Shown here piece by piece: positions 5,864 to 25,564 of a DNA stretch of 64,000 bases. Each line of letters begins with the position of its first letter. Position 1 is the stretch's first letter. Position numbers and translations under genes: made by a program. Below the pieces are notes generated by a model. The model searched no databases. It was not told the DNA's origin and worked only from the letters and a program-made list of their open reading frames with translations. The DNA is from a virus. The stretch lies in the IMG/VR virus record IMGVR_UViG_3300008954_002609, positions 1 to 64,000 of that record. One strand, given 5' to 3'.

Positions 5864-5899
5864 GATTCTATTTCGATGATAAGTCGAGTTGATTATTTA

Positions 5900-6340
5900 T
5901 TAAGCGAACGCTGGCGTAGTCGCTGCAGAGATAAATCCCTGAACGAGCCACCTAGTATTGTCCTTATCGTAAACTACATCTACCCAGGAGCCCTGTTCTG
6001 TGTCCGCTGCGAGAGTCAATACGTCATCGTCAGTGGTGACGCCATCAGCTTTTATCTGATCTGTGTCCCCTGCTGCGTCGTCGTCGTCCCATGTGACCGC
6101 ACCCTGAAAGGCATCAGCCGCTGCTGCGGTTATAGTAATAGCGCCTGCGGCATCGTCAATAATCCAAAACGAATATCTAGTCCCGTTCTCCGGATCAGTT
6201 GGCAGGGTGATGGCCACTGCGCCGCCTGCGTCGACTGCGTAAAGCTCCCCACTCTCATTCTTTGAAATTGTCTTGTCAGCAGTTACCACCTCTAATCTCG
6301 CTCTGCTTGCTGAGTATGCTGCTCTTCCTACTTTTGCCAT
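5900..6340 (-). CDS. Putative capsid decoration/head-fibre protein
   Basis: Directly after the major capsid gene. Beta-rich acidic sequence ('AVAITLPT....G.RY.F'). AAGGAG SD. Flanked by its own promoter motif and terminator. Confidence 0.55.
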   Translation of the reverse strand: MAKVGRAAYSASRARLEVVTADKTISKNESGELYAVDAGGAVAITLPTDPENGTRYSFWIIDDAAGAITITAAAADAFQGAVTWDDDDAAGDTDQIKADGVTTDDDVLTLAADTEQGSWVDVVYDKDNTRWLVQGFISAATTPAFA

Positions 6341-6411: not shown

Positions 6412-6438
6412 AAAAAGCCCCCCAAATCAATGGGGGGC
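6412..6438 (-). terminator. Rho-independent terminator after the major capsid gene
   Basis: Minus strand GCCCCCCA-TTGATT-TGGGGGGC-TTTTT. Confidence 0.9.
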
Positions 6439-6465: not shown

Positions 6466-8205
6466 TTAAGCACCTGCCTCACCTAGGAGACCACGAACAA
6501 TAACTAGACCGTACATATCAGGACGTACCATCTTCTTCGCATAGCGCGTCATGACGCCCTTACGAGGTACGAAGTCTTCCGTACCGAAGATAGTAGGTGT
6601 GACCTGCAATGGTACATAAGGAGCGTAGACATAGCCACTCTCAAGGAATGAACTACCCTTACGTCCTACGAGAACCACGTTTCTTGGGAAGTAAGGATCA
6701 ACATAGACCTCAAACTTCTTAGAAAGCGAGCCAGTCTTCACAGCACCGATGTCACCTCTATCAGCATCAGCAGTTACGCTTGCGCGGAAACCACTAGTGA
6801 ATTCAAGAATATTGGCAACTTCTGGAGAGCAAACAACAAAGTTTGCGCCGCCGCGAAGCGTCTTTCTGTGGATCTGAGCACTAACGTCATTGATAGTCTC
6901 AATGAGGGTCTCATACCACTCACTGACTGTACCAGTAAAGTCAGGCGATGCTGAAGTAGCACCTAACTCGTTACCACTGCTGTCGACAAACAATCCAGGA
7001 GCACGGCTCCAGTATCGAGTTCCAGCCTTAGCGCCATTAACAAGGTCACCAAGAATTTCCTGATCAATTTCGAGAGCAATCTGCTCCGAAAGGATCCCGG
7101 TCAATTCGACCTCTGCGTCAAGGTTGTGGTATGCATTGAGATCTTGTCCCAATTCAGGTGTCCACTTAGCCTTGAGCTTCTTAGTGACTGCGGTAACAGC
7201 AATGCTGTCAACCTTAATATCAATTTCTGGTATGCGTTGCTTACCAGTGGAAGAACCAACCTCGCCGGTAGCGGGTGATGGCTCTTCAAGACCCCAGGTG
7301 TCAGCACCAACAACAGATCCGAGGGCATCAGCCTGACCTGCGCCTGCGCCGCCAGCCTGGAACTTATCGTTGAGTGGGTAAGACAACAGAATGCCGTCGG
7401 CGGCGTCACCAGAGTTAGGAACACCATTGCCCAAGAAAACAATTCTTAGCTTACCAGCACTGGTAATCTGAGTGAGTCTTCTGACAAGTCGGTTGTTTGC
7501 CGATGCACCTGTAACTTCGCAGATTGCAGACAGGGCATTCCTGTTTAGATCCGCTGGGATACCTGCGCCGGAAAGCTCCAAGACAGTTACGTCATTTGAT
7601 CCAGCCAGAACATCTGGGTCCCACTTGATCAGGTGCTTTTGAGCCTCAGTCATTGCGCTAGGCGCGACTTCGTCACAAGCAGTTGAAGCTGCAGCGAAGT
7701 GACGTGAAGCACTTGCTGTTGGAGAACTGTAACCAGTTCCCAAGTTGTAAAAACCGCCAGGGCCACCACTGCTCATGTCACCATCAAGGTCAACACCACC
7801 AGTGATCTGACGACCAACTACGTTACCGCCATATACGGAATCGCTTTTGTTCATACCGGATCTGGTGTGAGTGTGTGTAAAGTCCAGGAAGAAAATGAGA
7901 CCACTTGGTAGACTCATTGGCTGTACCGAGACCAAATCGTTAGCAATCAATCCGCCGAATACACGACGAACAATTGGGAAAGCAACAGATGCGAAACCTT
8001 CGACATCGCCTGCTGCCATTGAGGAAGCCTCACGGAGAAGCTCCTTAGCCTGATTCTCAAGGAGAACGGCCATGTTATTCTTAGCATTATCGTTGCCTAG
8101 ACCCTCTAGAAGACCAGTCTTTTCCCACTTGTTGAGAAGTGCTGCTCCTTCTTTCGAGACGTCACGGCGCTGAATGCCTTCAGTTAGTTTTTGTAAAACA
8201 GACAT
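6466..8205 (-). CDS. Major capsid protein (T4 gp23-like)
   Basis: Motifs 'AVLLENQ', 'VSVQPMSLPSGLIFF', 'KLKAKWTPELGQDLNAYHNLDAEVEL', 'YAPYVPL' and 'PRKGVMTRYA'. AGGAGG SD. Confidence 0.97.
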   Translation of the reverse strand: MSVLQKLTEGIQRRDVSKEGAALLNKWEKTGLLEGLGNDNAKNNMAVLLENQAKELLREASSMAAGDVEGFASVAFPIVRRVFGGLIANDLVSVQPMSLPSGLIFFLDFTHTHTRSGMNKSDSVYGGNVVGRQITGGVDLDGDMSSGGPGGFYNLGTGYSSPTASASRHFAAASTACDEVAPSAMTEAQKHLIKWDPDVLAGSNDVTVLELSGAGIPADLNRNALSAICEVTGASANNRLVRRLTQITSAGKLRIVFLGNGVPNSGDAADGILLSYPLNDKFQAGGAGAGQADALGSVVGADTWGLEEPSPATGEVGSSTGKQRIPEIDIKVDSIAVTAVTKKLKAKWTPELGQDLNAYHNLDAEVELTGILSEQIALEIDQEILGDLVNGAKAGTRYWSRAPGLFVDSSGNELGATSASPDFTGTVSEWYETLIETINDVSAQIHRKTLRGGANFVVCSPEVANILEFTSGFRASVTADADRGDIGAVKTGSLSKKFEVYVDPYFPRNVVLVGRKGSSFLESGYVYAPYVPLQVTPTIFGTEDFVPRKGVMTRYAKKMVRPDMYGLVIVRGLLGEAGA

Positions 8206-8223: not shown

Positions 8224-9303
8224 TTATTTTTTAATTCCAGCCAAACGCTGAAGCCGCTCAGAAAGGGGGTCTGCTTGTTTTTGTTCCCTATTTCTTTGCG
8301 AGTTTATTAGTAGAGAAGGTCGGCTTACTGCTTCGCTAAGTGATTTTGGCATAGATCGTTTTTCTGTGCTGCCCACTGTGCTCTGAAGTGTTTCATATAT
8401 AACCTTCGCTTCCTTGGTTGTACTGGCCTTAGAAATTGCTTCGACAATTTTTCTCTTTTGTCGCTCATTCAGGGAGGAATTTTCAAGTGCCTTATTGATG
8501 TATAAAAGCTTCGCATTGGAAACATTTACACTTTCAATCTTTTCTTTCAGTTCTATTAGGACTTCTTTTAGCTGGTCATTTTCTTCGACAAGCTTCAAAG
8601 CCTCTTCTTTTGAATTTTTAATATTTTTAAGTGACTCGCTGAGTTCTTCCACTCTTGCACGTAGAGACTCATTCTCTTCACGAACCTCGTCGTCGTTCTC
8701 GCGGGCGAGTGCTTGATCCTCTAAATCTTCCATCTGGGACTCGGGAGTACCTGCCCACCCACTAGATTGGGGATCAATGTCAACTTTTAATCTTTCCAAT
8801 ATTTCCTCGACAAGAGCATCATCTATGCCCAGGTCGACGTCTTCCGCTAGGGTGCTGCCTGCTTCTGGTGCTGCATCTACTGCTTGCTCTATTTCTGGGG
8901 ATGTTGCCAACTCTTCATGAGTCTCAGAAGCCTCGGGCTCTACTCCCTCTTCTTCTTCATACTTCTCCATTTGCTGAAGAAGCCCCTCCAGGTCTATTGT
9001 GACGGTACCGCTATCATCTGCCGGTGCATCTGCGCCAGGGATATCTTCCTCCAGTGCAGTTGGTACTTGATTTAGTGCCGGATCGGATGTTGGATCTGCA
9101 GTTGCTTCGTCGGAAGAAGGAGTCGCAAATGGATCCTCCTCGGATTCGAGCCCAAACTCGTCCTCCTGTTCCAGAAGAGTGTCTACTGCTTCTTTTATTT
9201 GATCTGAATACTTTTCAATAATCATCGCTTCAGCGTTCTTTATTGCCGACTCTTTTAGAGCCTTTGCGTCGATTATAGCTTGTTCTAACATAGATGTTGA
9301 CAT
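8224..9303 (-). CDS. Prohead core scaffolding protein (gp22-like)
   Basis: Acidic coiled coil directly upstream of the capsid gene, with many L/I-x-E sites. Ends in 'RLQRLAGIKK'. Confidence 0.75.
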   Translation of the reverse strand: MSTSMLEQAIIDAKALKESAIKNAEAMIIEKYSDQIKEAVDTLLEQEDEFGLESEEDPFATPSSDEATADPTSDPALNQVPTALEEDIPGADAPADDSGTVTIDLEGLLQQMEKYEEEEGVEPEASETHEELATSPEIEQAVDAAPEAGSTLAEDVDLGIDDALVEEILERLKVDIDPQSSGWAGTPESQMEDLEDQALARENDDEVREENESLRARVEELSESLKNIKNSKEEALKLVEENDQLKEVLIELKEKIESVNVSNAKLLYINKALENSSLNERQKRKIVEAISKASTTKEAKVIYETLQSTVGSTEKRSMPKSLSEAVSRPSLLINSQRNREQKQADPLSERLQRLAGIKK

Positions 9304-9375: not shown

Positions 9376-9558
9376 TTACTCCGCTTTCGTGCGTATTCTT
9401 ATGGTAGGTACGCCCCTGAAGCCTAGAATAAACGGGGGCGGTTGCAAGACTTCTTTTGTGTCTTCTCCTTGCTTTGTAGCAATCGGAGTATATTGGCGCT
9501 TGACATCATTTGTTTTTATTATGTAGTCCGCCGATTTCTTTATATTTGACCTAGCCAT
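9376..9558 (-). CDS. Hypothetical 60-aa protein (start revised to MARSNIKK)
   Basis: TAAGGAG SD precedes the ATG at 9558. The longer start in the track overlaps the upstream gene. Confidence 0.65.
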   Translation of the reverse strand: MARSNIKKSADYIIKTNDVKRQYTPIATKQGEDTKEVLQPPPFILGFRGVPTIRIRTKAE

Positions 9559-9569
9559 GACAACACTCC

Positions 9570-10013
9570 TTAAAAAGTCGAACAAGCAGCAACAACTGTT
9601 GGAGCGCGGTTTTCGGCACCCCAAGCGCCGGCGTCTCTCACAAAAGCAACTCTATCAACGCCATTAATATCAACCTGAAAAGTCTTTGACGTACTTGCTG
9701 TCAAGCTGTCGCAGTCCAGAGTCTCTTTGTAAGCCCAAACGCCTGCGGCGTGCATGTACCACCAAACTTCCACATCTCGACCAGGTGTTCCATTGGCGGT
9801 GGCAGAAACCGTTACAAATAAGTATCTTTGATTTTGTGTTGCGTACCCGGTAGTGCCATCTCTAGCTCCGGCACCCGTTGAAATATTCGTAGTAACGGGG
9901 AGTGCATCGTGAGCTAAAACCGTCACTGCAGTTCCATTAGCGCCCGCTAAATTCTTGGGACCTCTTGTTCTGCCCCAACTTGTATGCTTGTAAACTGTGC
10001 TGTCATGTGCCAT
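9570..10013 (-). CDS. Hypothetical protein, probably virion-associated
   Basis: AAGGAG SD, head-module location, beta-rich composition. Confidence 0.7.
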   Translation of the reverse strand: MAHDSTVYKHTSWGRTRGPKNLAGANGTAVTVLAHDALPVTTNISTGAGARDGTTGYATQNQRYLFVTVSATANGTPGRDVEVWWYMHAAGVWAYKETLDCDSLTASTSKTFQVDINGVDRVAFVRDAGAWGAENRAPTVVAACSTF

Positions 10014-10024
10014 CTTGGGTCTCC

Positions 10025-10258
10025 TTAATCTTTAAATTTGGCATTGTGCTTCTCTGTTATTTCACGGGTTATTTTTAATTTCCTTTCCCGCTTTCTTTTT
10101 CTCTTAACCGAAGGCTTTTCAAAAAACCTCCTTTTCTTAATTACGTCCAGTACTCCGTTTTTCTTGACTTTTCTACAGAACTTCTTAATTAGCCTTTCGT
10201 TCTCTTCTTTTCCCCTAGTTTGTGACCAGACTTCTACATTTACTGACTTTTTAGACAT
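10025..10258 (-). CDS. rpsU: Phage-encoded 30S ribosomal protein bS21
   Basis: 'ERLIKKFCRKVKKNGVLDVIKKRRFFEKPSVKRKRK' fits the bS21 signature (E.ALRRFKR.....G......RE.YEKP...RKR). 77 aa, basic. Confidence 0.9.
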   Translation of the reverse strand: MSKKSVNVEVWSQTRGKEENERLIKKFCRKVKKNGVLDVIKKRRFFEKPSVKRKRKRERKLKITREITEKHNAKFKD

Positions 10259-10272
10259 TTATAAACTCTCTT

Positions 10273-10683
10273 TCATATTAGTTTAGACCAGTTGGTACCG
10301 GCTATATCCATAATTCCGTCTATGTTCACTCCAGCATCGTCTGGGGCATACGATGCTAGCGGATTTGACGGAGTTGAATCTTGACCGGGCGTACCACCCC
10401 TAGTTAAGGGTTCTGTGTTTTCGAAAAGATTAACTCCGTTATAAGCGTCCTTCGAAATAGCTTCAAACAATTTCTTCTTCGTTTCTTCTGTTCTGGTTTT
10501 TGATCGACGAGGGGCTTTCGTCGAGGGTGCTGACTTCTTTTCCACCAGTGGTTCCGCTGTTGCGGTAAGCCCGGTAGCCACCTCTGCAATTATGCCAGAA
10601 AGAACGCCCTCTTCAAAGATCACTTCTTTTATACATTGTTTGATCAGCGGTTTTAGTACCTTTTTTAAATCTTCGTTTTTCAT
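10273..10683 (-). CDS. Hypothetical head-module protein
   Basis: N-terminal 'LKPLIKQCIKEVIFEE' helix. Directly follows the prohead protease. Confidence 0.75.
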   Translation of the reverse strand: MKNEDLKKVLKPLIKQCIKEVIFEEGVLSGIIAEVATGLTATAEPLVEKKSAPSTKAPRRSKTRTEETKKKLFEAISKDAYNGVNLFENTEPLTRGGTPGQDSTPSNPLASYAPDDAGVNIDGIMDIAGTNWSKLI

Positions 10684-10686
10684 AAT

Positions 10687-11283
10687 TTACTCTTTAATGA
10701 TGTCGTTTAAAATTCTGTTAAGTTTATCTGCTTTCGTGAAAATATTTGACCGCTGCTTTGCCTCGGTCATCATAAAAGCGCCTGGAGTGGATGGATCGGA
10801 AACCATATCGAAACAAATCAATTGAAAATCGTCTTCCACTATCGTGCGTCCGTTTTCTTCCCTTATTGACCCCATTCCTCTGGAGGATATCCCCAGCTTG
10901 ACTCCTGCGTTAACGAGTTCCTTCAAGACTTTTCCTGATGGAGTGTTGAGAACTTCAATTTTTCCCATAACCTTATCGCCGTCGGCCCAGACTTCCGTCA
11001 CTAGGTGCGAGGCATTTGCCAAATTAATTACTGAAGTGTCAGGGTGATCTAGCTCTCCTAGAGCCCTTCTCTCTTCCACCAATTTCTTGTAGTTCTTTAC
11101 TTCTCTCATAAGAACATTGCTGGGGTACACCCTGCCATTACCGTTCTGGACGTTTGCGCACTGCATAACCCCCGTAAGATAAATGGCTCCCTCTTCCCTG
11201 ATTCGACGCTTTTCGTCTTCAGTTAGGAGGTCTTGGCATATACCACCTTCACATAATTCATAATATTCTCTTAAAAGCTTCAT
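10687..11283 (-). CDS. Prohead core protease (T4 gp21-like)
   Basis: 'NGNGRVYP', 'ALGELDHP', 'LNTPSGK', 'LGISSRGMGS' and 'DMVSDPSTPGA'. Confidence 0.95.
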   Translation of the reverse strand: MKLLREYYELCEGGICQDLLTEDEKRRIREEGAIYLTGVMQCANVQNGNGRVYPSNVLMREVKNYKKLVEERRALGELDHPDTSVINLANASHLVTEVWADGDKVMGKIEVLNTPSGKVLKELVNAGVKLGISSRGMGSIREENGRTIVEDDFQLICFDMVSDPSTPGAFMMTEAKQRSNIFTKADKLNRILNDIIKE

Positions 11284-12339: not shown

Positions 12340-13156
12340 TTTCTTCCAACTCTTCGACTAGGCTTTGGATTTTCAAAACCTCCTCTATCATCCCAAGGTC
12401 GATTTCCTTGTTCTTATAACTCTCTAGAAGCTCAAGGACCTTTTCTGTCTTCTTTTTCATGCTATTGTCCTTAGATATTAGAGGGTGAGCAGTAGCTGTG
12501 GATATCTTTTCTTTTAGTGCTCCGATTTCTTCATTCATTGCGACCTTGAGTTCTAATCCTCCGTCCACAAAAGAAGTTACATACCTGGTTAAAAGATTCT
12601 TTTGGCTTTCATTTAATTGATTTTTATACTTTTCGTTGAATCTCTTCACAAATGACTTGTATATTAAATTATCGATAGGACTCTTATCTTCTGGCTTCTT
12701 CTCTTCTCTTGATAATGACTCTACCAGCTTCTGCTCCAACAGCACTCTCTGCTTCACATCGGCAGAATCGCTAAAGATGGAGTATATACTTGCAAGATTT
12801 TTGTAATTCGGGACAAAATTCGTATACACAGAGGTGCCAAGAGATCTATTGATGACTTTGATGAGATTACTCTGTTCTCTAAATATGTTTTTCTTATCCA
12901 ATCTAGAGTATGCGATCTTTGCCTCCATCATAACCCTCTCAGCTAGATCCCTATCCAATCCGGACGTTTCATATAGAGACTTGTAAATTCCCAACTCTTC
13001 CTTGAGAACAGAATCTTTTGAAAAATGATCTTTGATTATTACTTTAATCTTATTCATTTTATTTTTGTCATTCTTGACGGCACTCTTCGTTAACTCTCTA
13101 ACAAGTGCCTCGTAAACAAACGCTGTATTTCTCTTTTTATTATGTTTTAGTCTCAT
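12329..13156 (-). CDS. Hypothetical helical head-module protein (start revised to MRLKHNKKRNT)
   Basis: GAGG-containing SD before the ATG at 13156. Adjacent to the portal gene. Confidence 0.75.
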   Translation of the reverse strand: MRLKHNKKRNTAFVYEALVRELTKSAVKNDKNKMNKIKVIIKDHFSKDSVLKEELGIYKSLYETSGLDRDLAERVMMEAKIAYSRLDKKNIFREQSNLIKVINRSLGTSVYTNFVPNYKNLASIYSIFSDSADVKQRVLLEQKLVESLSREEKKPEDKSPIDNLIYKSFVKRFNEKYKNQLNESQKNLLTRYVTSFVDGGLELKVAMNEEIGALKEKISTATAHPLISKDNSMKKKTEKVLELLESYKNKEIDLGMIEEVLKIQSLVEELEENDS

Positions 13157-15113
13157 TATTTTTCCTCTTCTCAAGATTTTCAATCAATCTCTTTATGTCA
13201 GAATTTATCTCTGTAATCAACTGTTCTTCCTTATCATAATTAGAGCCCTCGTTCTCATAAATGCCCTTTGATATCGATTGCATACCTGCAAGATCGTCAA
13301 AACCATAGCCTTTAAAGATATTTCTACTTGTGGATGAAGCTGTTTCCCTGGAATATTTGGAGTTTAAGGATCTCTTTCTCGCTCCGCTTTGCCTCTTGTC
13401 TCTCTTGACTGGGGTATATTCCTTCTTTCTATCTGCCCTGGTGCGTCCCCTAGATCCTACAACATCATCATCTCTTTTGCCTGGTGCAGCTAATAGAACG
13501 TCGTCTTCGCCCGTGTCTGCTTCGCCGGTATCGCCGCCGAGGTCTTCTTCATCCCCTCCGATGTCTGGCGTGCCTAGATCTCCCTCTCCTCCAAGCTCCT
13601 CTTCCCCAAAGCCTCCTGCGTCGGCGGGCATCAATTCTGCCTGCTCTGCTTCTCCGGCGACCTCAAGGGCTGCGTCAAGCTTCCTATCATAGAACATTTC
13701 TCTCTGGTTTCTCAAGAACTCCTGCTCGGACATATTAAACAACCTTGTCGCTATCCAACGCTTACTGAAGAATCCCTCAGTTGCTGCTGATGCTGTGTCG
13801 AACTTCACCTTCCAGTGCTCCAGTTCTTGCAATTCAGCTATCTTTGAAGGATTTGATAATTTTAATTTAAACGAGGTAAGATCCTCTCCGCGAAAACCCA
13901 AGACATAAAGGTGAACAACACCAATTTTCTCCAGCTCTGTAATTACGGACCTCTGAAGTCTTTGTATTGTCCTGGCAAATCTGATATCTTTTTGTGCCAG
14001 CGTCGTCTTGTCTTCCTCTGCGCCCTCAATCTGAGAAAGATACGAAGGCGGGATCTTCAACGCTGAAAATAATTTGTCTCTAAGATACTTTACGTCATCA
14101 ATGTCGCCAGTGTAAGTACCCCCTGGCAGATTCTCCACCTTGGAAGATACCTCTCCTCGGACTGGGATGAAATAATCTTCGTCTATTGACATCGGATTAT
14201 ATCGAAGGTCGACGCGGCCGGTTGAAGGATCAACCACCTGGTTTCTCTTCATTTGTGTCATGACCTTTTGCATGTACTGTTCAACATCCTGTGGAGGAAT
14301 TGCGCCGACGTCAATATAAAACACTCTGCGCTCTGGCGAACGAACAATCCTGTATGCCATCATAGCATCTTCCAAAAGGGTTAACTGTCTCCAGATTCTT
14401 CTTGCCGGTTCTAAGGCGGACGTACCGTAGGGCGCATATTTGTCATTGCCTAGAATCCTAAAGTGAGCCATTTGCCAATTTTCAAAGGTCATTCCTGCAG
14501 AGTTCCACTGAAATTGGACGTAGTCTGGATTTGTTTTGTCTTCACCTTCCAGTCTTTCCACTTCCTGGGTGGGTAAGCCTATAACACTTTTCACTCCGAT
14601 GATCTCGTCTAAGTCCATGTAAAGGAAAAAGTCGCCGTACTTACACATTGTTCGACACCAGCCGAACAGATTGAATTCTAAATTCAATACTTTATAGTAA
14701 AGCGAATCCAAAATATTCTTTATCTCGTCGTTTTGACAATCTATTGTCAGTAGTGGTTGTAAGTTGCTGGATGTTGTCATCTCATCTGCATAGATGTCCA
14801 AGGCTGAAGCTATTTCCGGCGTGTATTCCATCTGGTCGAAGTCCACATACCTTTCGAGCCTATTCTGGTTCTGCATCGCAGAAGCCATAAGGTTATCAAA
14901 TGGATTGTATTCAATCTTTTTAAATTGCTGACCACTGGCAGATCTAAATCTTCGCGCATACTTGTCCAGTTGTCTTCTTCTTAGCCTTCTGGCTGTCTGG
15001 GTTCTATGCGTAACAATCGGTCCTGAAAGGAGCTTTGTTAACTTTTTGAAAAGCGTGTGCTCTTGATTTACCGGGTTCTTATTGTTTTTATTTCTATTTC
15101 TATTTCTTGCCAT
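13140..15113 (-). CDS. Portal protein (T4 gp20-like)
   Basis: 'LLEDAMMAYRIVRSPERRVFYIDVG', 'EDYFIPVRG', 'LPGG' and 'DDVKYLRDKLFSALKIP'. Confidence 0.96.
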   Translation of the reverse strand: MARNRNRNKNNKNPVNQEHTLFKKLTKLLSGPIVTHRTQTARRLRRRQLDKYARRFRSASGQQFKKIEYNPFDNLMASAMQNQNRLERYVDFDQMEYTPEIASALDIYADEMTTSSNLQPLLTIDCQNDEIKNILDSLYYKVLNLEFNLFGWCRTMCKYGDFFLYMDLDEIIGVKSVIGLPTQEVERLEGEDKTNPDYVQFQWNSAGMTFENWQMAHFRILGNDKYAPYGTSALEPARRIWRQLTLLEDAMMAYRIVRSPERRVFYIDVGAIPPQDVEQYMQKVMTQMKRNQVVDPSTGRVDLRYNPMSIDEDYFIPVRGEVSSKVENLPGGTYTGDIDDVKYLRDKLFSALKIPPSYLSQIEGAEEDKTTLAQKDIRFARTIQRLQRSVITELEKIGVVHLYVLGFRGEDLTSFKLKLSNPSKIAELQELEHWKVKFDTASAATEGFFSKRWIATRLFNMSEQEFLRNQREMFYDRKLDAALEVAGEAEQAELMPADAGGFGEEELGGEGDLGTPDIGGDEEDLGGDTGEADTGEDDVLLAAPGKRDDDVVGSRGRTRADRKKEYTPVKRDKRQSGARKRSLNSKYSRETASSTSRNIFKGYGFDDLAGMQSISKGIYENEGSNYDKEEQLITEINSDIKRLIENLEKRKNNETKT

Positions 15114-15118
15114 GTGTT

Positions 15119-16705
15119 TTATCCCTTAAACAGCCACGGGAACTGCTCATGTTGACTCTTCGTCTTCTGTATTTTATCAAAAATACTCTTGTTTTTATAG
15201 GTATTTTGACCAGGTATGGTGGTATCCAGTCTATTATTCGTGACAATCATAGAATCCAAACACGCCCTCTTATATTCTGTATTTCTCTGGTTTTCTACCA
15301 ATGCTGTGTCCCTTATCCAGCAGCCTATCGCGCAAGCCATAACGAGGTCATCGTTATAACTCCTCATTGCTTCTGGTTTTCCGTTATTCCACACAAAAGT
15401 CTTCATCTCGTTCAAGAGTCGTGTGGAATATACTTTAATTAGTTTATTTCTTATGAATTCCTCCATCTTAGCGATAACTAATGGTCTAGTTTTGGAAGAA
15501 GTTGTAAATCCGGCAATCGCATTTGATAAATTTTCTGCTCTAATCTGGTCGATGTACTCATGAGTTGATTTTATTGAGTGATAAACGTTTGGATATCCTT
15601 TTTCTCGGAGCTTTTCAAGAACAGCATACCCGACAGAATTATTTTCAACAACTACCATACAGTTTCCGTACTCTCTCCCTGAATTATATAGTATGTCGGA
15701 AAATACATCTGGCGTTACTTTTCCTTGATATTCCGCTATGACCTCCATTGTCGATAGTTTTATCGTATGAAAGACTGAATAGTCTCTCCCGTCGCCTCTC
15801 GCAACATCAGCAGATATTAGGTAATCCTCGCCGGGGGCGAACTCTTCCCATATCCAATAATTTCTGTCAAAACCTGTTCTGTATTTTGGCTCTCTAATTA
15901 AATTTTCTATCCAAGCGATATCATCTCCGTGGAAAACAGTCTCGCCCGACATATTAAAATTGCACTCAAGTTCTTGTGCGATTTCTCTCCTGGACATATT
16001 TTTTGTTTCTTTTTCGAACCAATCCTTGTCTCTGTCGGGGTGACGGTCCCAGGGTAGAACAGTTGCATAAAAATCATTTAGCCTTTGGTCTGCTTCGATG
16101 TACGTCTTGTGAAACCAATTACCCACACCGTTTGGAGTGGATAGGGCGATACAGCGTCCACCAGTTGACAAAGTAGGGTACAAGCCCATCCACAAGTCGT
16201 CTAGTCCGTCGACGTGGGCTGCCTCATCAATAACAAGAAGAGAAAGAGCTTCTGAACGGCCGGCGTCCCCACTGGTGGATGACGCTTTTATCTGAGACCC
16301 GTTCGTAAGTTCGAACGAAGTCCTATTGTCAACACTGACCGTTGCTATTGTTAAGAAATCTGGCACGTTCTTCAGTATGTTCTTAACTTTTTTTACTAGG
16401 TTTGACGCTGTTCCAAACTTCGTCGCGATTACCAGGACATTCTTTTCTCTGTGGAACAACATCAACCACACAACATAGGCTGCAGTGATAGTGGAGATGC
16501 CCAACTGTCTAGCTTTTAAAATAACGTTAAATCGGTGATCCAGATAGTCTTTGACTAAGTCTTCCTGAAAGTCGTAAAGCTTAAAGGGGATTAGTCCCTT
16601 TTGTGGGTGAGTTATTTTTGCATAATTATTTATAAAGTAGTTCGGATCCTTGCCGCAACGGACAATTTCTTTCATTACTTCCTTCTTGGTTAATTTGAAG
16701 GTCAT
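15119..16705 (-). CDS. terL: Terminase large subunit (T4 gp17-like)
   Basis: 'LYDFQ', Walker A 'KARQLGIST', Walker B 'LLVIDEAAH', 'STPNG', and nuclease motifs 'ADVARGDGRDYS' and 'DDLVMA'. Confidence 0.97.
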   Translation of the reverse strand: MTFKLTKKEVMKEIVRCGKDPNYFINNYAKITHPQKGLIPFKLYDFQEDLVKDYLDHRFNVILKARQLGISTITAAYVVWLMLFHREKNVLVIATKFGTASNLVKKVKNILKNVPDFLTIATVSVDNRTSFELTNGSQIKASSTSGDAGRSEALSLLVIDEAAHVDGLDDLWMGLYPTLSTGGRCIALSTPNGVGNWFHKTYIEADQRLNDFYATVLPWDRHPDRDKDWFEKETKNMSRREIAQELECNFNMSGETVFHGDDIAWIENLIREPKYRTGFDRNYWIWEEFAPGEDYLISADVARGDGRDYSVFHTIKLSTMEVIAEYQGKVTPDVFSDILYNSGREYGNCMVVVENNSVGYAVLEKLREKGYPNVYHSIKSTHEYIDQIRAENLSNAIAGFTTSSKTRPLVIAKMEEFIRNKLIKVYSTRLLNEMKTFVWNNGKPEAMRSYNDDLVMACAIGCWIRDTALVENQRNTEYKRACLDSMIVTNNRLDTTIPGQNTYKNKSIFDKIQKTKSQHEQFPWLFKG

Positions 16706-18810: not shown

Positions 18811-21800
18811 CTATATATTAACGTGTGCAAAGCCAGACTTCCTCTCAATGCTGATCTGCATATCCACGCAATCCTTTAAAGTATCTAGATGTGAAATAAG
18901 AATTACCGTCTTAAAATATCCCTTAACCATGTCCAGGATTCTAACAAATCCTTCCATATTTTCCTCATCCAAGGCAGTTCCGGGCTCATCCAAAATGAAC
19001 AAGTCCGACTTCGGCAGGCTTGATACTGTCAAAAAGGCCAATCGAAGAGCCATCGAGGCTATCGTCTTCTCTGCTCCAGATCCCATCTCCAGGGGTCTAG
19101 GGTCGTGCTTTGGATGCTTAATAAAGATATCCAATTTTTTATCACTGTTCTGAATAAAGATTTCAAAGTCCACTATGTTGGTAAGGATCTTCGCAATCTC
19201 CTGGTTAATTATTGGCAATCTCTCCTTTATGATATTATAGGAAATGCCGTTAGGGTGAGCACAAGACATCAATAAGTCATATGCTGCGAAGTCCGTTGCT
19301 AAAGTCTTGTATTCCCCCTGCTGCTCCTTCAGGGACTTAAGCTTTTCTTCCATGGATCCGTATGACTTGTGAAAAGACAACATGTCTTCGTGACACTGAT
19401 CATACTCCTTTTGTTTTATTTGGTGGATCTTTTCACACTCTCTCCTGTGACCCAACAGAGACTCTAGGTTTTCAATCGCCTCTCTGTTGCTCTCGTACTC
19501 TTGTTCTTTTGCCGACAAATCCTTCAGTACGTGCTTAGATCTAAGAATCTCCGTCTTGTTCTTCTCTAGAGATATCTGCATCTCTGCCATGGAATTGGCT
19601 ACTGTGTTCTTCTTGTCCAGAAGTCTATTATATTTTTCAATGTATTCATCAATTTTCTGCTGCTCTTCAGATTTGAGACCGCTTCCTACATTGTTTATCT
19701 CTGTGCTGATGGCAGACATGTTCGCTTCTTTTTCTTTGATTACGGAGCCCAAAATCTCGGAACAACCACTGCACATCATATCTCCTTTTCTGACTAATTT
19801 TGTCTTCTCTTCGGAGATCCATTTCATCTGAGATAAGAGAAACTCTAACCGATCCTTGTTTTCTATGATCTTTTCTCTCTTTTCTTGATAAGAGCCAATG
19901 TCAAATTCTCCCAAAAAATCCTCTATTTTGGAATAGAGCGCCTGGCTCTCTCGCAATTCATTTTGCGTAGAATCATTTTTATCCGAGAGGTGCTCGACTT
20001 TATTTTCCTCTCTGGAAATCTTTTTTCTTAGCGATTTTATGTCAATGATTTCTGTCGGAACAGAGTCTATCTTTTCTTGCACCTCGCTCATCTCCAGGGA
20101 GATTTCTTGAATATCCTCTTTTAGAGTTTCGCAAATGGCTTTGTTCCTCACAATAGCTATTTCACTTTCTGTGATCTTCTTCTTCGCTTCCTCTATCATG
20201 GAATCGTAGTCCACATCTTCAAGCTTCTTTAATGCGCCCTTAGTTAGAGAACTATCCTCTTTTGCCATCTTGAACTTTTTGTCAAAAATCTCTAGATCTA
20301 GAAACTTTGCCAATATTTCTTTTCTCTTTGTAGATCCCTCATTTACGAAAGACAGAGAATCAAGCTGACTTGCCATAGAAGTTGATAGAAAATCATCTAG
20401 TGTGCCAAAGTACTTTCTGATGTTTCTGTCAGTGTCTTGTCTTGAGGTTCCGTTTAGACTTGTCCTGTTCCCAAGCAAATCTACAGTTTCAAAATCTAGG
20501 TCTGTTTTTGCCTCAAGTGTCTCTTCTCCCTTTAGCTTCTTTACATACTTTTCAGCACGTCTATCAATCAAATATGTCTTATCATCAACGCCAACAATCG
20601 CCCTTACCGAACACTTATCCTCGTTTTGGTTGATGACGTTCAAGTTCCTTCTTACGGATTTTGACGTAGAGTTATACAAAGAAAATAACAAAGAGTCCAC
20701 GACAGAGGACTTGCCGGAGAAATTCTTTCCGAAAATACCTACGATGCCTTCTAGTTTGGCAAAATCAATTCTATTTCCCTCTCCGTAATTGAACATATTG
20801 TCCCACTCTAGAGATTTGAGGCTCCAACTTATATTCCTATATGTGTCCTCTTTTTGCTCAATAGCCTTATTGTACCTTGAGTTCAGGTCCAATACGCGCT
20901 TCATTACATCGTCAGATACTTGAAAATCCTTTAAATAGCCTTTTATTAAATCCTCTTGTGTCTTTAGGTCTCTTAGATCTTTTTGTTCGAACCCATCCCC
21001 AGAATCTAAGGTTATCTTTTTTGTAGCTGCGCGATTCAAATAGGTAACAGACTCTGGATCGTGCCTGTACTTGATTATCTCTACTGCATGGCGCATCTTA
21101 TCTAGAGAAATACTACTATCAGATACAAGCCTCAACCTCGCACCCTTCGGAACACTTATATCGTCTGGTAGGTCTCCCTTGTTGGTGAGGGGGATTGTGA
21201 TAAATGGTTTTGGATTATCGAAAGTGATTAACTTATTGGTAAACTCATCTTTGCTCTCAATATCCCACAGTAAATAACCCTTATCTAGTGATTCTCCGAA
21301 GTTCTGCTGAACAGTTGAGCCCGCATACCAGATACGGCCGTCCTTGTCGAGAGGTTGAGTCTTATGTATATCTCCCAAAAAGGCAAAATCAAACTCACTG
21401 AAGATCTCAATGTCGTGGTCGCCGCCGAGGGTCCAGTTTAAGTCGGTCTTAGATTTATCGATGGCTCCATGATAGAGGGCTATATTTATCTTGTCTGGAT
21501 CTGTTGGGTCGACCCAGTTCTCTTCGTCAAACACAGATAACACATTAAGGCAAAACTTGTCGTCAAGATGCACCTCTCCTGCGTTCTTAATTAAATGTAA
21601 GTTAGGGGAACCAATTGCTTTAACAATTGGACTCAGGGCGTCTTGGCGGTTGTGGTTACGCAAATTGCCATCATGATTTCCTAAAATTATATATGTTGGG
21701 GCAATATTGCTAAGATTTTCGAAAAAATCTCGTGCCATGTCTACAAACTCTGGTGAAATTTGTGTCTTAGTGTGTGCGATGTCCCCGCAGTGAATAATAT

Positions 21801-21912
21801 AATCCACGTTACTATCAATCAGTGATCGATAGAGCTGATCAAAAACCTCTCTATATTCAAAATGATATTTAAGATTTCTAATGTGGGTGTCCGCAATATG
21901 CGCGAATCTCAT
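18811..21912 (-). CDS. Fused SbcD/Mre11 nuclease - SbcC/Rad50 ATPase (gp47-gp46 equivalent)
   Basis: Phosphoesterase motifs DTH, GD, GNHD and GDIH. Then Walker A GKNFSGKS, coiled coil with central CSGC, signature MGSGAE, Walker B LFILDEP and H-loop ISH, all in one ORF. Confidence 0.93.
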   Translation of the reverse strand: MRFAHIADTHIRNLKYHFEYREVFDQLYRSLIDSNVDYIIHCGDIAHTKTQISPEFVDMARDFFENLSNIAPTYIILGNHDGNLRNHNRQDALSPIVKAIGSPNLHLIKNAGEVHLDDKFCLNVLSVFDEENWVDPTDPDKINIALYHGAIDKSKTDLNWTLGGDHDIEIFSEFDFAFLGDIHKTQPLDKDGRIWYAGSTVQQNFGESLDKGYLLWDIESKDEFTNKLITFDNPKPFITIPLTNKGDLPDDISVPKGARLRLVSDSSISLDKMRHAVEIIKYRHDPESVTYLNRAATKKITLDSGDGFEQKDLRDLKTQEDLIKGYLKDFQVSDDVMKRVLDLNSRYNKAIEQKEDTYRNISWSLKSLEWDNMFNYGEGNRIDFAKLEGIVGIFGKNFSGKSSVVDSLLFSLYNSTSKSVRRNLNVINQNEDKCSVRAIVGVDDKTYLIDRRAEKYVKKLKGEETLEAKTDLDFETVDLLGNRTSLNGTSRQDTDRNIRKYFGTLDDFLSTSMASQLDSLSFVNEGSTKRKEILAKFLDLEIFDKKFKMAKEDSSLTKGALKKLEDVDYDSMIEEAKKKITESEIAIVRNKAICETLKEDIQEISLEMSEVQEKIDSVPTEIIDIKSLRKKISREENKVEHLSDKNDSTQNELRESQALYSKIEDFLGEFDIGSYQEKREKIIENKDRLEFLLSQMKWISEEKTKLVRKGDMMCSGCSEILGSVIKEKEANMSAISTEINNVGSGLKSEEQQKIDEYIEKYNRLLDKKNTVANSMAEMQISLEKNKTEILRSKHVLKDLSAKEQEYESNREAIENLESLLGHRRECEKIHQIKQKEYDQCHEDMLSFHKSYGSMEEKLKSLKEQQGEYKTLATDFAAYDLLMSCAHPNGISYNIIKERLPIINQEIAKILTNIVDFEIFIQNSDKKLDIFIKHPKHDPRPLEMGSGAEKTIASMALRLAFLTVSSLPKSDLFILDEPGTALDEENMEGFVRILDMVKGYFKTVILISHLDTLKDCVDMQISIERKSGFAHVNI

Positions 21913-21944: not shown

Positions 21945-21973
21945 ATTATATTACAATCTGATAAAGGAGTCAA
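21945..21973 (-). promoter_or_regulatory. Sigma70-type promoter TTGACT-N17-TATAAT
   Basis: Read directly on the minus strand. Followed by further TATAAT copies and a GGAGG SD for the SbcCD fusion. Confidence 0.8.
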
Positions 21974-23101: not shown

Positions 23102-23613
23102 TTAATCAACCCTGCCTTTGCTATAACCCAGCTATCCGCACGATCTGTTACACCGGGTTTAGGATTGCCAAACTTTGTATATTCTACCTCGAAAGACGGG
23201 TTCTTGTCAAGAACAAAATCCAAAACAACTTCCTTTGCCTTTGTTCCTCGTGGAACAGTGATGCCGCAGGTCTTTCTCGCTTCGGATGCGGATATATAAT
23301 TCGGCTTCTTTCCAAGCATTCTGAACGCTGTCCACGAAACCATGCCATTAAAGCTTTGTAATATTGACATCGTCTTCGCAGATGATCCTCCGGAATTAAA
23401 AAATTTAAATGGCTCTTCTATGTAGATCTCTTGTATCTTGTGTTTTAGGGCTATCCCCAAAAGCCAAAGTCGGACGCCTTCGGCCTTGTCAAATAAGTCT
23501 TTGAAATGCTTTTTGTTCCTCATGTCCCACGATTCACACGCGACAATATTACCATCCATGTCGAGAATGGTCGCTCCTGTAATACTTGTTGAAATGTCTA
23601 GTCCTAAAATCAT
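23074..23613 (-). CDS. RuvC-like Holliday junction resolvase
   Basis: 'MILGLDISTSITG', 'IYIEEP' and 'DRADS' acidic catalytic pattern. Confidence 0.85.
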   Translation of the reverse strand: MILGLDISTSITGATILDMDGNIVACESWDMRNKKHFKDLFDKAEGVRLWLLGIALKHKIQEIYIEEPFKFFNSGGSSAKTMSILQSFNGMVSWTAFRMLGKKPNYISASEARKTCGITVPRGTKAKEVVLDFVLDKNPSFEVEYTKFGNPKPGVTDRADSWVIAKAGLIKWQEKNLKS

Positions 23614-24287
23614 TTAAAAGTCTGGTAAACGTATTGCATATATCTTATCAAAATTGCCTCTTTTCGTTCCTCATTTTCTGTGTGATACCACTGCCAGGCG
23701 GTAGTATCTTTTACCATTTTAATCGCTTGTTTGAGATTTTTTATATTTTTTTTTAATATTTGTATGTGTTCTTTTTCTGGGTCCGGTGGGCTGATGTTCA
23801 AGTCTTCTGCTATTTCCAACAAATCTGACAAGTCTGCATTCTCTGAAGCCTGTTGTGCTCTCCTGAACAACTCCTCCTTCTTTTGTGCCTCTTCACTAGA
23901 TACCCCTATAAGCGCATCTGGGTGGGACTCTCTTGCTATAGCCCTGTATAGCTTCTTAACACTCTTAGAGTCGGGATTCTTCTTCTTTATCTTCTTTGTG
24001 GGTAGCTCTTCTTCCTTTTCTTTTTTATTTTTTTGTTTTGCTCTTTTGCCGGCTTTACTCAGGTTTGATTTCTTTTTTGGCTCGTCCTCTTTTTTAGTCT
24101 TATTCATGGCTCCCTGGAGAACTTCTTGTTCATCAATTGGACAAGTCTCGCAAACTTTGTTGTAGGCTTCAGCAAAATCTAGCTGCGCGTCTTCGAAGAT
24201 CTCTTCATCCATAATGAGTTCCGCTTTAAGGAATTTCGCCTCCAAGACAAGCATGTTGTAAAGCTTTTTATCTCTACTGACTAACAT
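23610..24287 (-). CDS. J-domain (DnaJ-like) protein
   Basis: 'VKKLYRAIARESHPD...KEELFRRAQQA' with an intact HPD motif. Confidence 0.8.
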   Translation of the reverse strand: MLVSRDKKLYNMLVLEAKFLKAELIMDEEIFEDAQLDFAEAYNKVCETCPIDEQEVLQGAMNKTKKEDEPKKKSNLSKAGKRAKQKNKKEKEEELPTKKIKKKNPDSKSVKKLYRAIARESHPDALIGVSSEEAQKKEELFRRAQQASENADLSDLLEIAEDLNISPPDPEKEHIQILKKNIKNLKQAIKMVKDTTAWQWYHTENEERKEAILIRYMQYVYQTFK

Positions 24288-24290
24288 GAT

Positions 24291-25556: not shown

Positions 25557-25564
25557 AACACTTC

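What the first reader, a model, noticed from the sequence alone, without database searches (positions are those of the whole stretch)
10025..10258. Ribosomal protein bS21 in the head operon of a phage whose late genes carry strong Shine-Dalgarno sites
Seen: a bS21 gene between the prohead protease and scaffold/capsid genes. AGGAG or GGAGG precede the starts at 1555, 2572, 5328, 5786, 6340, 8205, 9558, 10013, 11283, 21912, 27877 and 50962, while bS21 itself has only GAGAG. Established: bS21 sits beside the 16S anti-SD and is exchangeable, it helps occlude the anti-SD in Bacteroidota, and phage-encoded bS21 genes near structural genes are already known. Inference: the phage bS21 swaps into host 30S late in infection and biases initiation toward SD-led structural mRNAs. 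The host cannot be identified from this window.
Basis: partly seen in the sequence, partly recalled or inferred. Interest (0 to 1): 0.7.

Follow-up and report, generated by a model that had tools for sequence, protein, structure and literature searches.

The report
Phage ribosomal protein S21, head operon
An uncultured marine T4-like phage carries a working copy of the small ribosomal protein bS21 inside its capsid-assembly operon; phage bS21 genes beside head genes are already published, and the phage's ribosome-binding sites point to an ordinary host rather than a new trick.

Summary
Window 10025-10258 (minus strand) encodes a 77-aa bS21 (Pfam PF01165, 44.5 bits). It lies between a T4-type prohead protease and the scaffold and capsid genes.

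The gene is a core gene of an abundant aquatic phage lineage:
- It keeps the same position and strand in 64 of 67 relatives picked by protease similarity alone.
- There is one copy per genome, and dN/dS is about 0.04-0.11.
- The same layout is annotated in the cultured Microcystis phage Mel-JY01.

The SD-bias idea is not supported:
- SD sites are used across the whole genome. In a complete 190-kb relative, the replication genes have SDs as strong as the later genes.
- The weak SD of bS21 itself is not conserved; 35 of 54 relatives have a normal one.
- Canonical TTGACA/TATAAT promoters are present.
- The protein has Arg/Lys where Bacteroidota bS21 has the anti-SD-masking Tyr54, and its tail is strongly basic.

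So this is a generic bS21 matched to an SD-reading host that is probably not Bacteroidota. The host itself remains unidentified.

Phage bS21 next to prohead protease and capsid genes is published (Chen 2022; Mizuno 2019). This scan has noted the same thing in several other genomes. It is a new member of a known kind, of low to moderate interest.

The parts
10025..10258 (-). Phage bS21 (rpsU-like) gene, 77 aa, pI 10.8, 38% Lys+Arg
   Evidence: Pfam PF01165 44.5 bits; PHROG 21469; PDB sequence hits are all bS21 chains; AF2 model pLDDT 84 with helices 20-34, 36-44 and 49-75, and the top Foldseek hits are bS21 chains; dN/dS 0.04-0.11
10266..10270 (-). Weak SD-like GAGAG, 7 nt before the bS21 ATG, in the 14-nt gap after the TGA of the upstream gene
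   Evidence: Read from the sequence; dG -4.4, rank 71 of 98; not conserved in relatives
10021..10025 (-). AGGAG SD of the downstream 147-aa gene, overlapping the last base of the bS21 TAA stop (tight packing or coupling)
   Evidence: Read from the sequence; dG -9.2
10687..11283 (-). T4 gp21-type prohead core protease
   Evidence: Pfam Peptidase_S77 E 6.5e-32; PHROG 207
10273..10683 (-). Conserved 136-aa gene of unknown function, always directly upstream of bS21 in relatives
   Evidence: No Pfam or PHROG hit; synteny in about 75 loci
9570..10013 (-). 147-aa Ala/Gly/Thr-rich gene of unknown function in a variable slot downstream of bS21
   Evidence: No family hit; present in only some relatives
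9376..9558 (-). 60-aa basic gene; true start at 9558 behind AAGGAG
   Evidence: conserved in close relatives
8224..9303 (-). Acidic (pI 4.3) scaffold-like protein, in the gp22 position
   Evidence: Composition; synteny; no family hit
6466..8205 (-). Major capsid protein, gp23 type, behind AGGAGG
   Evidence: Pfam Gp23 E 1.3e-74; SD dG -11.4
13140..15113 (-). Portal protein, gp20 type
   Evidence: Pfam Portal_T4 E 5e-78
15119..16705 (-). Large terminase
   Evidence: Pfam Terminase_6N; 42-43% identical to TerL of Mel-JY01 and Flavobacterium phage immuto
6417..6438 (-). Strong intrinsic terminator after the capsid gene; end of the head transcription unit
   Evidence: 8-bp stem with 7 GC pairs plus a T run
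21945..21973 (-). Canonical sigma70 promoter TTGACT-17-TATAAT, then GGAGG, before the SbcCD-like nuclease gene. A clue to the host type, not part of the bS21 operon
   Evidence: Read from the sequence

Best explanation
This is a functional phage-encoded ribosomal protein bS21. It is a vertically inherited core gene of a large, abundant lineage of aquatic T4-like myoviruses.

It sits in the head-morphogenesis operon, in the order terminase, portal, core genes, protease, orf136, bS21, scaffold, capsid. It is therefore made together with the structural proteins.

The product most likely occupies the normal bS21 site on the host 30S platform next to the anti-SD. There it would top up or replace host bS21, so that ribosomes stay competent for mRNA binding and initiation when virion proteins are made in bulk.

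It is the generic, non-masking bS21 type, and it matches a host that already reads Shine-Dalgarno sites and uses canonical sigma70 promoters. It does not create a late-gene-specific SD programme.

Shown here: identity, fold, conservation, synteny, purifying selection, genome-wide SD use, and absence of the Bacteroidota Tyr54 signature.

Inferred only: ribosome incorporation, timing, and benefit.
For: Identity:
- Pfam 44.5 bits.
- A profile of 51 viral homologues hits every bacterial bS21 in the PDB at 33-53 bits.
- AF2 model with pLDDT 84, and the best Foldseek matches are bS21 chains.

Core gene:
- The order portal..protease-orf136-bS21..scaffold-MCP holds in about 75 IMG/VR loci, with capsid identity down to about 50%.
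- Of 67 loci chosen by protease similarity alone with at least 1500 nt downstream, 64 carry bS21 on the same strand. The other 3 run off the contig.
- There is one copy in each of 5 large relatives, including a CheckV-100% genome of 190 kb.
- The 51 syntenic viral bS21 form one group apart from the sampled bacteria, SH-aLRT 94.
- dN/dS is 0.04-0.11.

Operon context:
- The gaps are 14 nt and 11 nt, and the downstream SD overlaps the bS21 stop.
- No strong promoter or terminator lies between 17.3 kb and 9.4 kb.

Host type:
- SD sites are enriched genome-wide, in this contig and in the complete relative including its DnaE and RNR genes.
- SD use across 54 related head modules is 61% against about 10% in controls.
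- The related Flavobacterium phage immuto has no bS21 and essentially no SDs, 1 of 21.
- Perfect TTGACA-17-TATAAT sites lie on the coding strand.

bS21 type:
- F. johnsoniae 7jil_z is the lowest-scoring bacterial bS21.
- The position aligned to Tyr54 is Arg/Lys in 38 of about 47 family members.
- The tail has a net charge of +8 to +14.

Published precedent:
- HTVC008M bS21 enters E. coli ribosomes (PMC6375957).
- Phage bS21 is transcribed together with structural genes (PMC9723584).
Against: - There is no expression or proteomic data for this phage or its close relatives; no RNA run holds the stretch.
- The host is unknown, so 'matches the host type' rests on phage signals only.
- Ribosomes carrying HTVC008M bS21 were almost inactive in an E. 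coli in vitro system (PMC6375957), so incorporation does not prove benefit.
- The huge phage LR756508 has bS21 in the same position but SD use at background level, 2 of 16. The gene's role is therefore not tied to SD-rich genomes.
- The position among prohead-core genes would also fit a packaged protein.
Confidence: 0.62

Rival explanations
1. Phage bS21 swaps into host 30S late in infection and selectively raises initiation on SD-led structural mRNAs over host and early mRNAs.
For: - Head genes have the strongest SDs: median dG -8.3 here and -8.2 in G001, against -6 to -6.7 elsewhere.
- bS21 lies next to the anti-SD and is needed for SD pairing in E. coli, as cited in PMC6375957 and PMC9723584.
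- The gene is co-located with late genes.
Against: - SDs are equally frequent in replication genes and in the glycan island. The difference between replication and head genes is not significant (p = 0.16).
- An SD-reading host would have SD-led mRNAs too, so SD alone cannot discriminate phage from host.
- bS21's own weak SD is not conserved.
- LR756508 has the same bS21 position without SD use.
Confidence: 0.15
2. Unmasking model. The host is a Bacteroidota species whose ribosomes hide the anti-SD. The Tyr54-less phage bS21 displaces host bS21, frees the anti-SD, and so gives SD-led phage mRNAs exclusive access.
For: - The family lacks Tyr54 and has a basic tail.
- F. johnsoniae ribosomes lacking bS21 gain SD recognition (PMC9976891).
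- The closest cultured head-module relatives include a Flavobacterium phage and a Rhodothermus phage.
- Chen 2022 assigns many bS21 myoviruses to Bacteroidetes hosts.
Against: - Replication genes, which must be translated before a late gene's product exists, carry SDs as strong as later genes.
- The promoters are canonical TTGACA/TATAAT. That Bacteroidota use a different promoter consensus is my own knowledge, not tested here.
- The real Flavobacterium phage of this head lineage has A-rich, SD-free leaders and no bS21.
- Bacteroidota-infecting bS21 phages keep an aromatic residue at position 54 (PMC9723584).
Confidence: 0.04
3. Packaged-protein model. The very basic bS21 homologue is loaded into the capsid with the prohead core. 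It is either injected to act on ribosomes from the start of infection or serves as a DNA-neutralising internal protein.
For: - It is placed among prohead-core genes (protease, orf136, scaffold).
- pI is 10.8 and 38% of residues are Lys or Arg.
- Chen 2022 raises encapsidation as a possibility.
- Some relatives add 20-35 aa Arg/Tyr/Asn-rich N-terminal extensions.
Against: - The rRNA-binding core (ERLIKRF...G..., YEKPSVKR) is kept across deep divergence and still matches bacterial bS21 profiles. A mere polycation would not need this.
- There are no virion proteomics.
Confidence: 0.07
4. Neutral hitch-hiker. A recently captured host rpsU with no role for the phage.
For: Ribosomal genes are sometimes picked up by phages (PMC6375957).
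Against: - It is present at the same site in 64 of 67 independently chosen relatives.
- It forms a virus-only clade.
- dN/dS is about 0.04-0.11, with synonymous sites saturated in most pairs.
- The best bacterial match is only 57% over 44 aa.
Confidence: 0.02

Closest known systems
RpsU (bS21) of Microcystis phage Mel-JY01 (GenBank PP395634.1, WWT39311.1)
   Same: Same gene order and strand: TerL, portal, three small genes, prohead protease, about 150-aa orf, bS21 (75 aa), scaffold region, gp23-type capsid. Pfam 45 bits. TerL is 42% and MCP 36% identical to this phage. It uses 4-mer SDs in 12 of 21 head-region genes.
   Different: Only 48% identical over a 46-column local match, 44% in the multiple alignment, with a different tail. 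It is a freshwater cultured phage with a reported cyanobacterial host. In the tree it is a long branch outside the marine clade.
bS21-encoding freshwater T4-like myoviruses, clades a-e, and the 900-genome context survey (Chen et al. 2022, ISME Commun 2:31, PMC9723584)
   Same: bS21 lies within a few genes of the prohead protease, capsid, portal and terminase genes. In their survey the prohead protease was within ten genes in 310 of 900 genomes, generally 2-4 genes away. They found late co-expression with structural genes and proposed substitution into host ribosomes.
   Different: In their clades bS21 is on the opposite strand to the structural genes, the hosts are Bacteroidetes, and an aromatic residue (Tyr54) is kept. 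Here the gene is on the same strand, the position is Arg/Lys, the tail is strongly basic, SDs and sigma70 promoters are present, and the habitat is marine.
bS21 of Pelagibacter myophage HTVC008M (Mizuno et al. 2019, PMC6375957)
   Same: A phage bS21 of a marine T4-like myovirus, and the only one shown experimentally to enter 70S ribosomes (in E. coli). Its genome is SD-using (12 of 20 ORFs).
   Different: Only 37% identical over 35 aa. Its gene lies about 16 kb from the capsid gene, not in the head operon. It was clearly captured from its SAR11 host, whereas this clade has no close bacterial donor.
Flavobacterium johnsoniae bS21 (PDB 7JIL chain z; Jha et al. 2021 PMC7797042; McNutt et al. 2023 PMC9976891)
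   Same: Same family and fold, and the same platform site beside the 16S 3' tail.
   Different: F. johnsoniae bS21 has Tyr54 stacking on A1534 and a less basic C-terminus, which sequesters the anti-SD. Here the aligned position is Lys62 (Arg/Lys across the family), no aromatic residue lies between F46 and H71, and the tail has net charge +10. It is the lowest-scoring bacterial bS21 against the viral profile, 33 bits against 45-53.

Membership tests
Ribosomal protein bS21 (Pfam PF01165) | Sequence scores above the curated family threshold | tested here: met
   44.5 bits against a cut-off of 27, E 1.2e-11; 44.2 bits in the genome search
Ribosomal protein bS21 (Pfam PF01165) | Small (about 55-90 aa), very basic protein with the conserved R-F-K/R...G...(F/Y)-(F/Y)-E-K-P-S...K-R core | tested here: met
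   77 aa, pI 10.8. FFEKPSVKRKRK aligns to S. aureus, B. subtilis and E. coli bS21. F27, S50 and K52 are invariant and E47, K48, P49 nearly invariant across 51 viral homologues
Ribosomal protein bS21 (Pfam PF01165) | Helical hairpin-like fold as seen in 30S structures | tested here: met
   AF2 pLDDT 84 with helices 20-34, 36-44 and 49-75. The top 9 Foldseek PDB matches are bS21 chains, e.g. 5nd8_u rmsd 1.6 A over 44 columns. E-values are weak (0.017 and above), as expected for so small a protein
Ribosomal protein bS21 (Pfam PF01165) | Binds the 30S platform and is part of the ribosome | not testable with these tools
   Only precedent exists: HTVC008M bS21 in E. coli ribosomes (PMC6375957)
Bacteroidota-type anti-SD-sequestering bS21 | Signature Tyr (or other aromatic) at F. 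johnsoniae position 54 | tested here: not met
   HMMER aligns query 18-59 to 7jil_z 10-51, and the viral profile 11-58 to chain 6-53, without length change. Extending by a few residues puts Tyr54 opposite Lys62. That position is R or K in 38 of about 47 family members, Y in one and H in one
Bacteroidota-type anti-SD-sequestering bS21 | C-terminal part markedly less basic than in other phyla | tested here: not met
   The tail after KPS has net charge +10 here and +8 to +14 across the family
Chen et al. 2022 bS21 phage clades a-e | bS21 encoded on the strand opposite to the flanking structural genes | tested here: not met
   Same strand here and in all 65 protease-selected relatives with a hit
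Chen et al. 2022 bS21 phage clades a-e | Bacteroidetes host | tested here: inconclusive
   The host is unidentified. SD use in all gene classes, canonical sigma70 promoters, and the SD-free leaders of the related Flavobacterium phage argue against it
T4-like head morphogenesis module | gp20 portal, gp21 protease, gp23 capsid and gp17-type terminase in one cluster | tested here: met
   Pfam Portal_T4, Peptidase_S77, Gp23 and Terminase_6N

The most novel reading that the evidence does not exclude
The phage bS21 raises how strongly initiation depends on SD strength. It would do this for example by restoring full bS21 occupancy on the ribosomes of a slow-growing oligotrophic host, or by holding the 16S tail in a more pairing-competent position. 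The head genes, which have the strongest SDs of the genome, would then outcompete host and other phage mRNAs late in infection. They exclude only an all-or-none late-gene SD programme and make a Bacteroidota unmasking scenario unlikely.
Probability: 0.12. Interest if true: 0.6.

Novelty: new member of a known kind. Interest (0 to 1): 0.25.

Why it matters
Phage bS21 is the most common ribosomal protein gene in viruses, and its function has never been shown in an infection.

This case adds that one very abundant marine T4-like lineage keeps a virus-specific, non-masking bS21 as a fixed core gene of the head operon. More than 597 IMG/VR contigs share the protease.

Within the same head-module family, the bS21 type and the phage's own translation signals follow the kind of host. 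The Flavobacterium phage has neither SDs nor bS21. These marine phages have both SDs and a generic bS21.

This narrows the plausible roles to keeping host ribosomes initiation-competent, rather than re-coding SD recognition. It also points to a cultured relative, Mel-JY01, with the same gene order in which the question could be tested.

It does not open a new kind of mechanism.

Tried and rejected
- tblastn of the 77-aa protein against 50,697 phage records found nothing at E 1e-3. The query is short and low-complexity-masked, so this is not evidence of absence. A Pfam search of chosen records did find bS21 in Mel-JY01, HTVC008M and LR756508.
- Host prediction from a bS21 phylogeny failed. The pattern-seeded genome scan returns only motif-sharing phyla (Bacillota, Chloroflexota, Myxococcota, Acidobacteriota), at most 57% identical over 44 aa. 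The viral clade stands apart from all of them. I had no way to fetch Bacteroidota, Proteobacteria or Cyanobacteria bS21 for the tree, so it cannot name or exclude a donor.
- The ESM Atlas returned only virus-only bS21 clusters.
- No RNA holder was listed among public runs. The holders are marine metagenome DNA only, so expression could not be examined, and I did not lay reads.
- A search for family-B DNA polymerase in five large relatives found none. The polymerase is DnaE-type.
- There is no paper on Mel-JY01 in the library.
- IMG/VR ids of the relatives are not in the supplements of Chen 2022 that are held as text.
- I considered that the 75-aa gene after the protease of Flavobacterium phage immuto might be an unannotated bS21. 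It is not: there is no Pfam hit and it is acidic and unrelated.
- I considered a protease-cleavage or capsid-targeting motif at the bS21 N-terminus. The LVE seen in close relatives is not conserved in this protein, so I dropped the idea.

Full report
**What is there**

The window is the first 64 kb of a 104,467-bp IMG/VR virus contig (GC 41.5%, CheckV 37% complete). Nearly all of its genes are on the minus strand.

ORF 10025..10258 (minus strand) encodes 77 aa. It matches Pfam Ribosomal_S21 at 44.5 bits against a cut-off of 27, and PHROG 21469 'ribosomal protein S21'.

Against PDB sequences it hits only bS21 chains. The best are S. aureus, B. subtilis and Lactococcus (E 1.8e-7 to 4e-6), with E. 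coli around 1e-4.

An AlphaFold2 model built on 51 viral homologues has pLDDT 84 and three helices. Its best Foldseek matches are bS21 chains from chloroplast, E. coli, S. aureus and Pseudomonas ribosomes, although the E-values are weak for so small a protein.

The neighbours are a T4-type head module, all on the same strand:
- terminase 15119-16705
- portal 13140-15113
- three small genes
- Peptidase_S77 protease 10687-11283
- a 136-aa unknown
- bS21
- a 147-aa unknown
- a 60-aa gene
- an acidic scaffold-like protein 8224-9303
- gp23-type capsid protein 6466-8205

The gaps around bS21 are 14 and 11 nt. The AGGAG of the next gene overlaps the bS21 stop codon.

No strong promoter or terminator lies between about 17.3 kb and 9.4 kb, and a strong terminator follows the capsid gene.

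**The Shine-Dalgarno claim**

The one at 9558 identifies the real start of the small gene.

Over the whole contig, 29 of 98 starts have AGGAG or GGAGG at -18..-4, against 2.1% of control ATGs (p = 5e-25). 47 of 98 have at least a 4-mer, against 13%.

SD use is not a property of late genes, however. Strong (5-mer) sites by gene class:

| Gene class | Strong SDs |
|---|---|
| Head genes | 8 of 21 |
| Tail genes | 4 of 16 |
| Sugar-enzyme island | 14 of 37 |

The closest large relative, G001, is 190,183 bp and CheckV 100% complete, and it shares this bS21 at 74% identity. Its 0-40 kb block holds a DnaE-type polymerase and a class II ribonucleotide reductase. Median pairing energies to a generic anti-SD in G001:

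| Block | Median dG (kcal/mol) |
|---|---|
| Replication block, 0-40 kb | -6.65 |
| 92.5-190 kb block | -6.05 (p = 0.78 vs replication) |
| Head/tail core | -8.2 (p = 0.16 vs replication) |
| Control ATGs | -3.7 |

Head genes therefore have the strongest sites, as highly expressed genes do in most bacteria and phages. The SD programme is nevertheless genome-wide and includes genes that must be translated before a late product exists.

It is not conserved: 35 of 54 distinct relatives have a normal 4-mer or better.

**A core gene of a large lineage**

A scan seeded with the bS21 family found about 75 IMG/VR loci with the order portal, orf284, orf202, orf116, protease, orf136, bS21, (variable), scaffold, capsid. 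Capsid identity falls to about 50% and bS21 identity to 37-74%.

A scan seeded with the protease alone removes that selection bias. More than 597 contigs matched. Of the best 80, 67 have at least 1500 nt downstream of the protease, and 64 of those carry bS21 on the same strand, a median 438 nt after the protease. The other three run off the contig end.

Five large relatives each have exactly one copy. dN/dS is 0.04-0.11, including the two unsaturated pairs at 0.09 and 0.11.

In a tree with the available bacterial sequences, the 51 syntenic viral proteins form one group (SH-aLRT 94). The best bacterial match is 57% over 44 aa. The bacterial sample is biased by the search motif and lacks several major phyla. 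The tree therefore supports an old, virus-specific clade but cannot name a donor or host.

The close family is marine, from Tara and marine metagenome records.

**Which kind of bS21, and which kind of host**

In Bacteroidota, Tyr54 of bS21 and a less basic C-terminus help sequester the anti-SD (PMC7797042). The Bacteroidetes-infecting bS21 phages keep an aromatic residue there (PMC9723584).

In this protein the situation is different:
- HMMER alignments to F. johnsoniae bS21 (7jil_z) run without length change to within a few residues of position 54. One alignment ends at chain residue 51 and the other at 53.
- By extension, Lys62 falls opposite Tyr54 and Ile63 opposite Ile55.
- No aromatic residue lies between F46 and H71.
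- The tail has net charge +10.
- Across the family that position is Arg or Lys in 38 of about 47 sequences.
- 7jil_z is the lowest-scoring bacterial bS21 against the viral profile, 33 bits against 45-53.

Independent signals agree on the host type:
- Perfect or near-perfect TTGACA-17-TATAAT sites lie on the coding strand in this contig, at 21945-21973, 93040-93068 and 103997-104025.
- The same is seen in the small-gene block of G001, where 14 of 15 sites with at least 10 of 12 matches are on the coding strand.

The closest cultured relatives by terminase and capsid are about 42-45% identical. They compare as follows:

| Phage | bS21 | SD use |
|---|---|---|
| Flavobacterium phage immuto | none | 1 of 21; A-rich, SD-free leaders |
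| Rhodothermus phage RM378 | none | 3 of 21 |
| Microcystis phage Mel-JY01 | annotated RpsU in the same position | 4-mer SDs in 12 of 21 |
| Huge phage LR756508 | in the same position | background level, 2 of 16 |

Taken together, the phage's translation signals and its bS21 type look matched to an SD-reading, sigma70-canonical host. Presence of bS21 is not tied to SD-rich genomes. The host itself remains unidentified.

**Mechanism**

The best-supported reading is the published one. A late-expressed phage bS21 enters host 30S subunits at the normal, exchangeable bS21 site. It keeps or raises the pool of initiation-competent ribosomes during bulk virion protein synthesis (PMC6375957, PMC9723584).

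Shown here are identity, fold, deep conservation of the rRNA-binding core, fixed operon position and purifying selection. Incorporation, timing and benefit are inferred.

The rival readings stand as follows:
- An unmasking model in a Bacteroidota host is unlikely, given the early-gene SDs and the promoter type.
- A packaged-protein role is possible, given the position among prohead-core genes and the extreme basicity. The conserved ribosomal core argues against a mere polycation.

**Comparison with what is known, and verdict**

Phage bS21 beside prohead protease and capsid genes is already documented. The prohead protease was within ten genes of bS21 in 310 of 900 bS21 phages, generally 2-4 genes away (PMC9723584). 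The very same gene order is annotated in GenBank for Mel-JY01.

This case differs from the Chen clades in strand, Tyr54, habitat and probable host type. It differs from HTVC008M in location and in lacking a recognisable host donor.

It is therefore a new member, a marine virus-specific clade, of a known kind.

The scan has flagged the same observation before on other DNA. At least five other genomes share this bS21 family, and at least 21 findings concern phage bS21. Two earlier follow-ups reached the same 'non-masking type, SD-using host' conclusion, which I reached from my own tests.

Interest is low to moderate.

Noticed in passing
window 9376-9624: The longest-ORF start (TTG at 9624) overlaps the upstream gene. 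The ATG at 9558 sits behind AAGGAG with good spacing and gives a 60-aa basic protein that is conserved in close relatives.
   Followed up: partly
window minus strand at 2603, 5357, 5817, 6392, 9338, 17307, 50982: The octamer ACTAWTTA is enriched (15 copies against 5.6 +/- 2.3 in shuffles) and lies in intergenic gaps before morphogenesis genes. Flavobacterium phage immuto has (A/G)CTATTTATAA before its portal gene and two other head-region genes (L161 near 2700, 4585, 13400). It may be a shared T4-like late promoter.
   Followed up: partly
L098, L100, L101, L105, L145, L151 (bS21 ORFs near 5880-6210): Some relatives carry bS21 with a 20-35 aa N-terminal extension rich in Arg, Tyr, Asn and Asp (89-103 aa in total). 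This is a variant form of unknown meaning.
   Followed up: no
G001 = L163-L172 (190,183 bp relative): The genome is almost unidirectional, with 207 of 236 ORFs on one strand. It has a DnaE-type Pol III alpha (1149 aa, G001 23157-26606) and a class II ribonucleotide reductase instead of a T4-type family-B polymerase. It also has tRNA-Arg(TCT) and tRNA-Met(CAT).
   Followed up: partly
window 18811-21912 and 21945-21973: A fused SbcD-SbcC-like nuclease (Metallophos plus SMC_N/AAA_23, 1033 aa) sits inside the late cluster. It lies behind a canonical TTGACT-17-TATAAT promoter and a GGAGG.
   Followed up: partly
L174/L178 (LR756508.1, 484-kb uncultured huge phage): It has a 79-aa bS21 about 2 kb upstream of the capsid gene on the same strand, but SD use in that 20-kb region is at background level (2 of 16 ORFs). 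So the same gene position occurs in an SD-poor genome.
   Followed up: partly
L155, L158 (IMG/VR contigs from isolate genomes): Their bS21 is nested among Streptococcus bS21 in the tree and lacks the head-module synteny. It is probably host rpsU on prophage-flank or misbinned sequence, not a phage gene.
   Followed up: no
G000 97868-97942 (beyond the window): ARAGORN calls a single tRNA with a CAT anticodon as tRNA-Met. A TTGAAA-18-TATAAT site lies just upstream at 97949-97978.
   Followed up: no
window 6417-6438: A perfect GC-rich hairpin (GCCCCCC...GGGGGGC) has T runs on both strands. It looks like a bidirectional terminator directly after the capsid gene.
   Followed up: no
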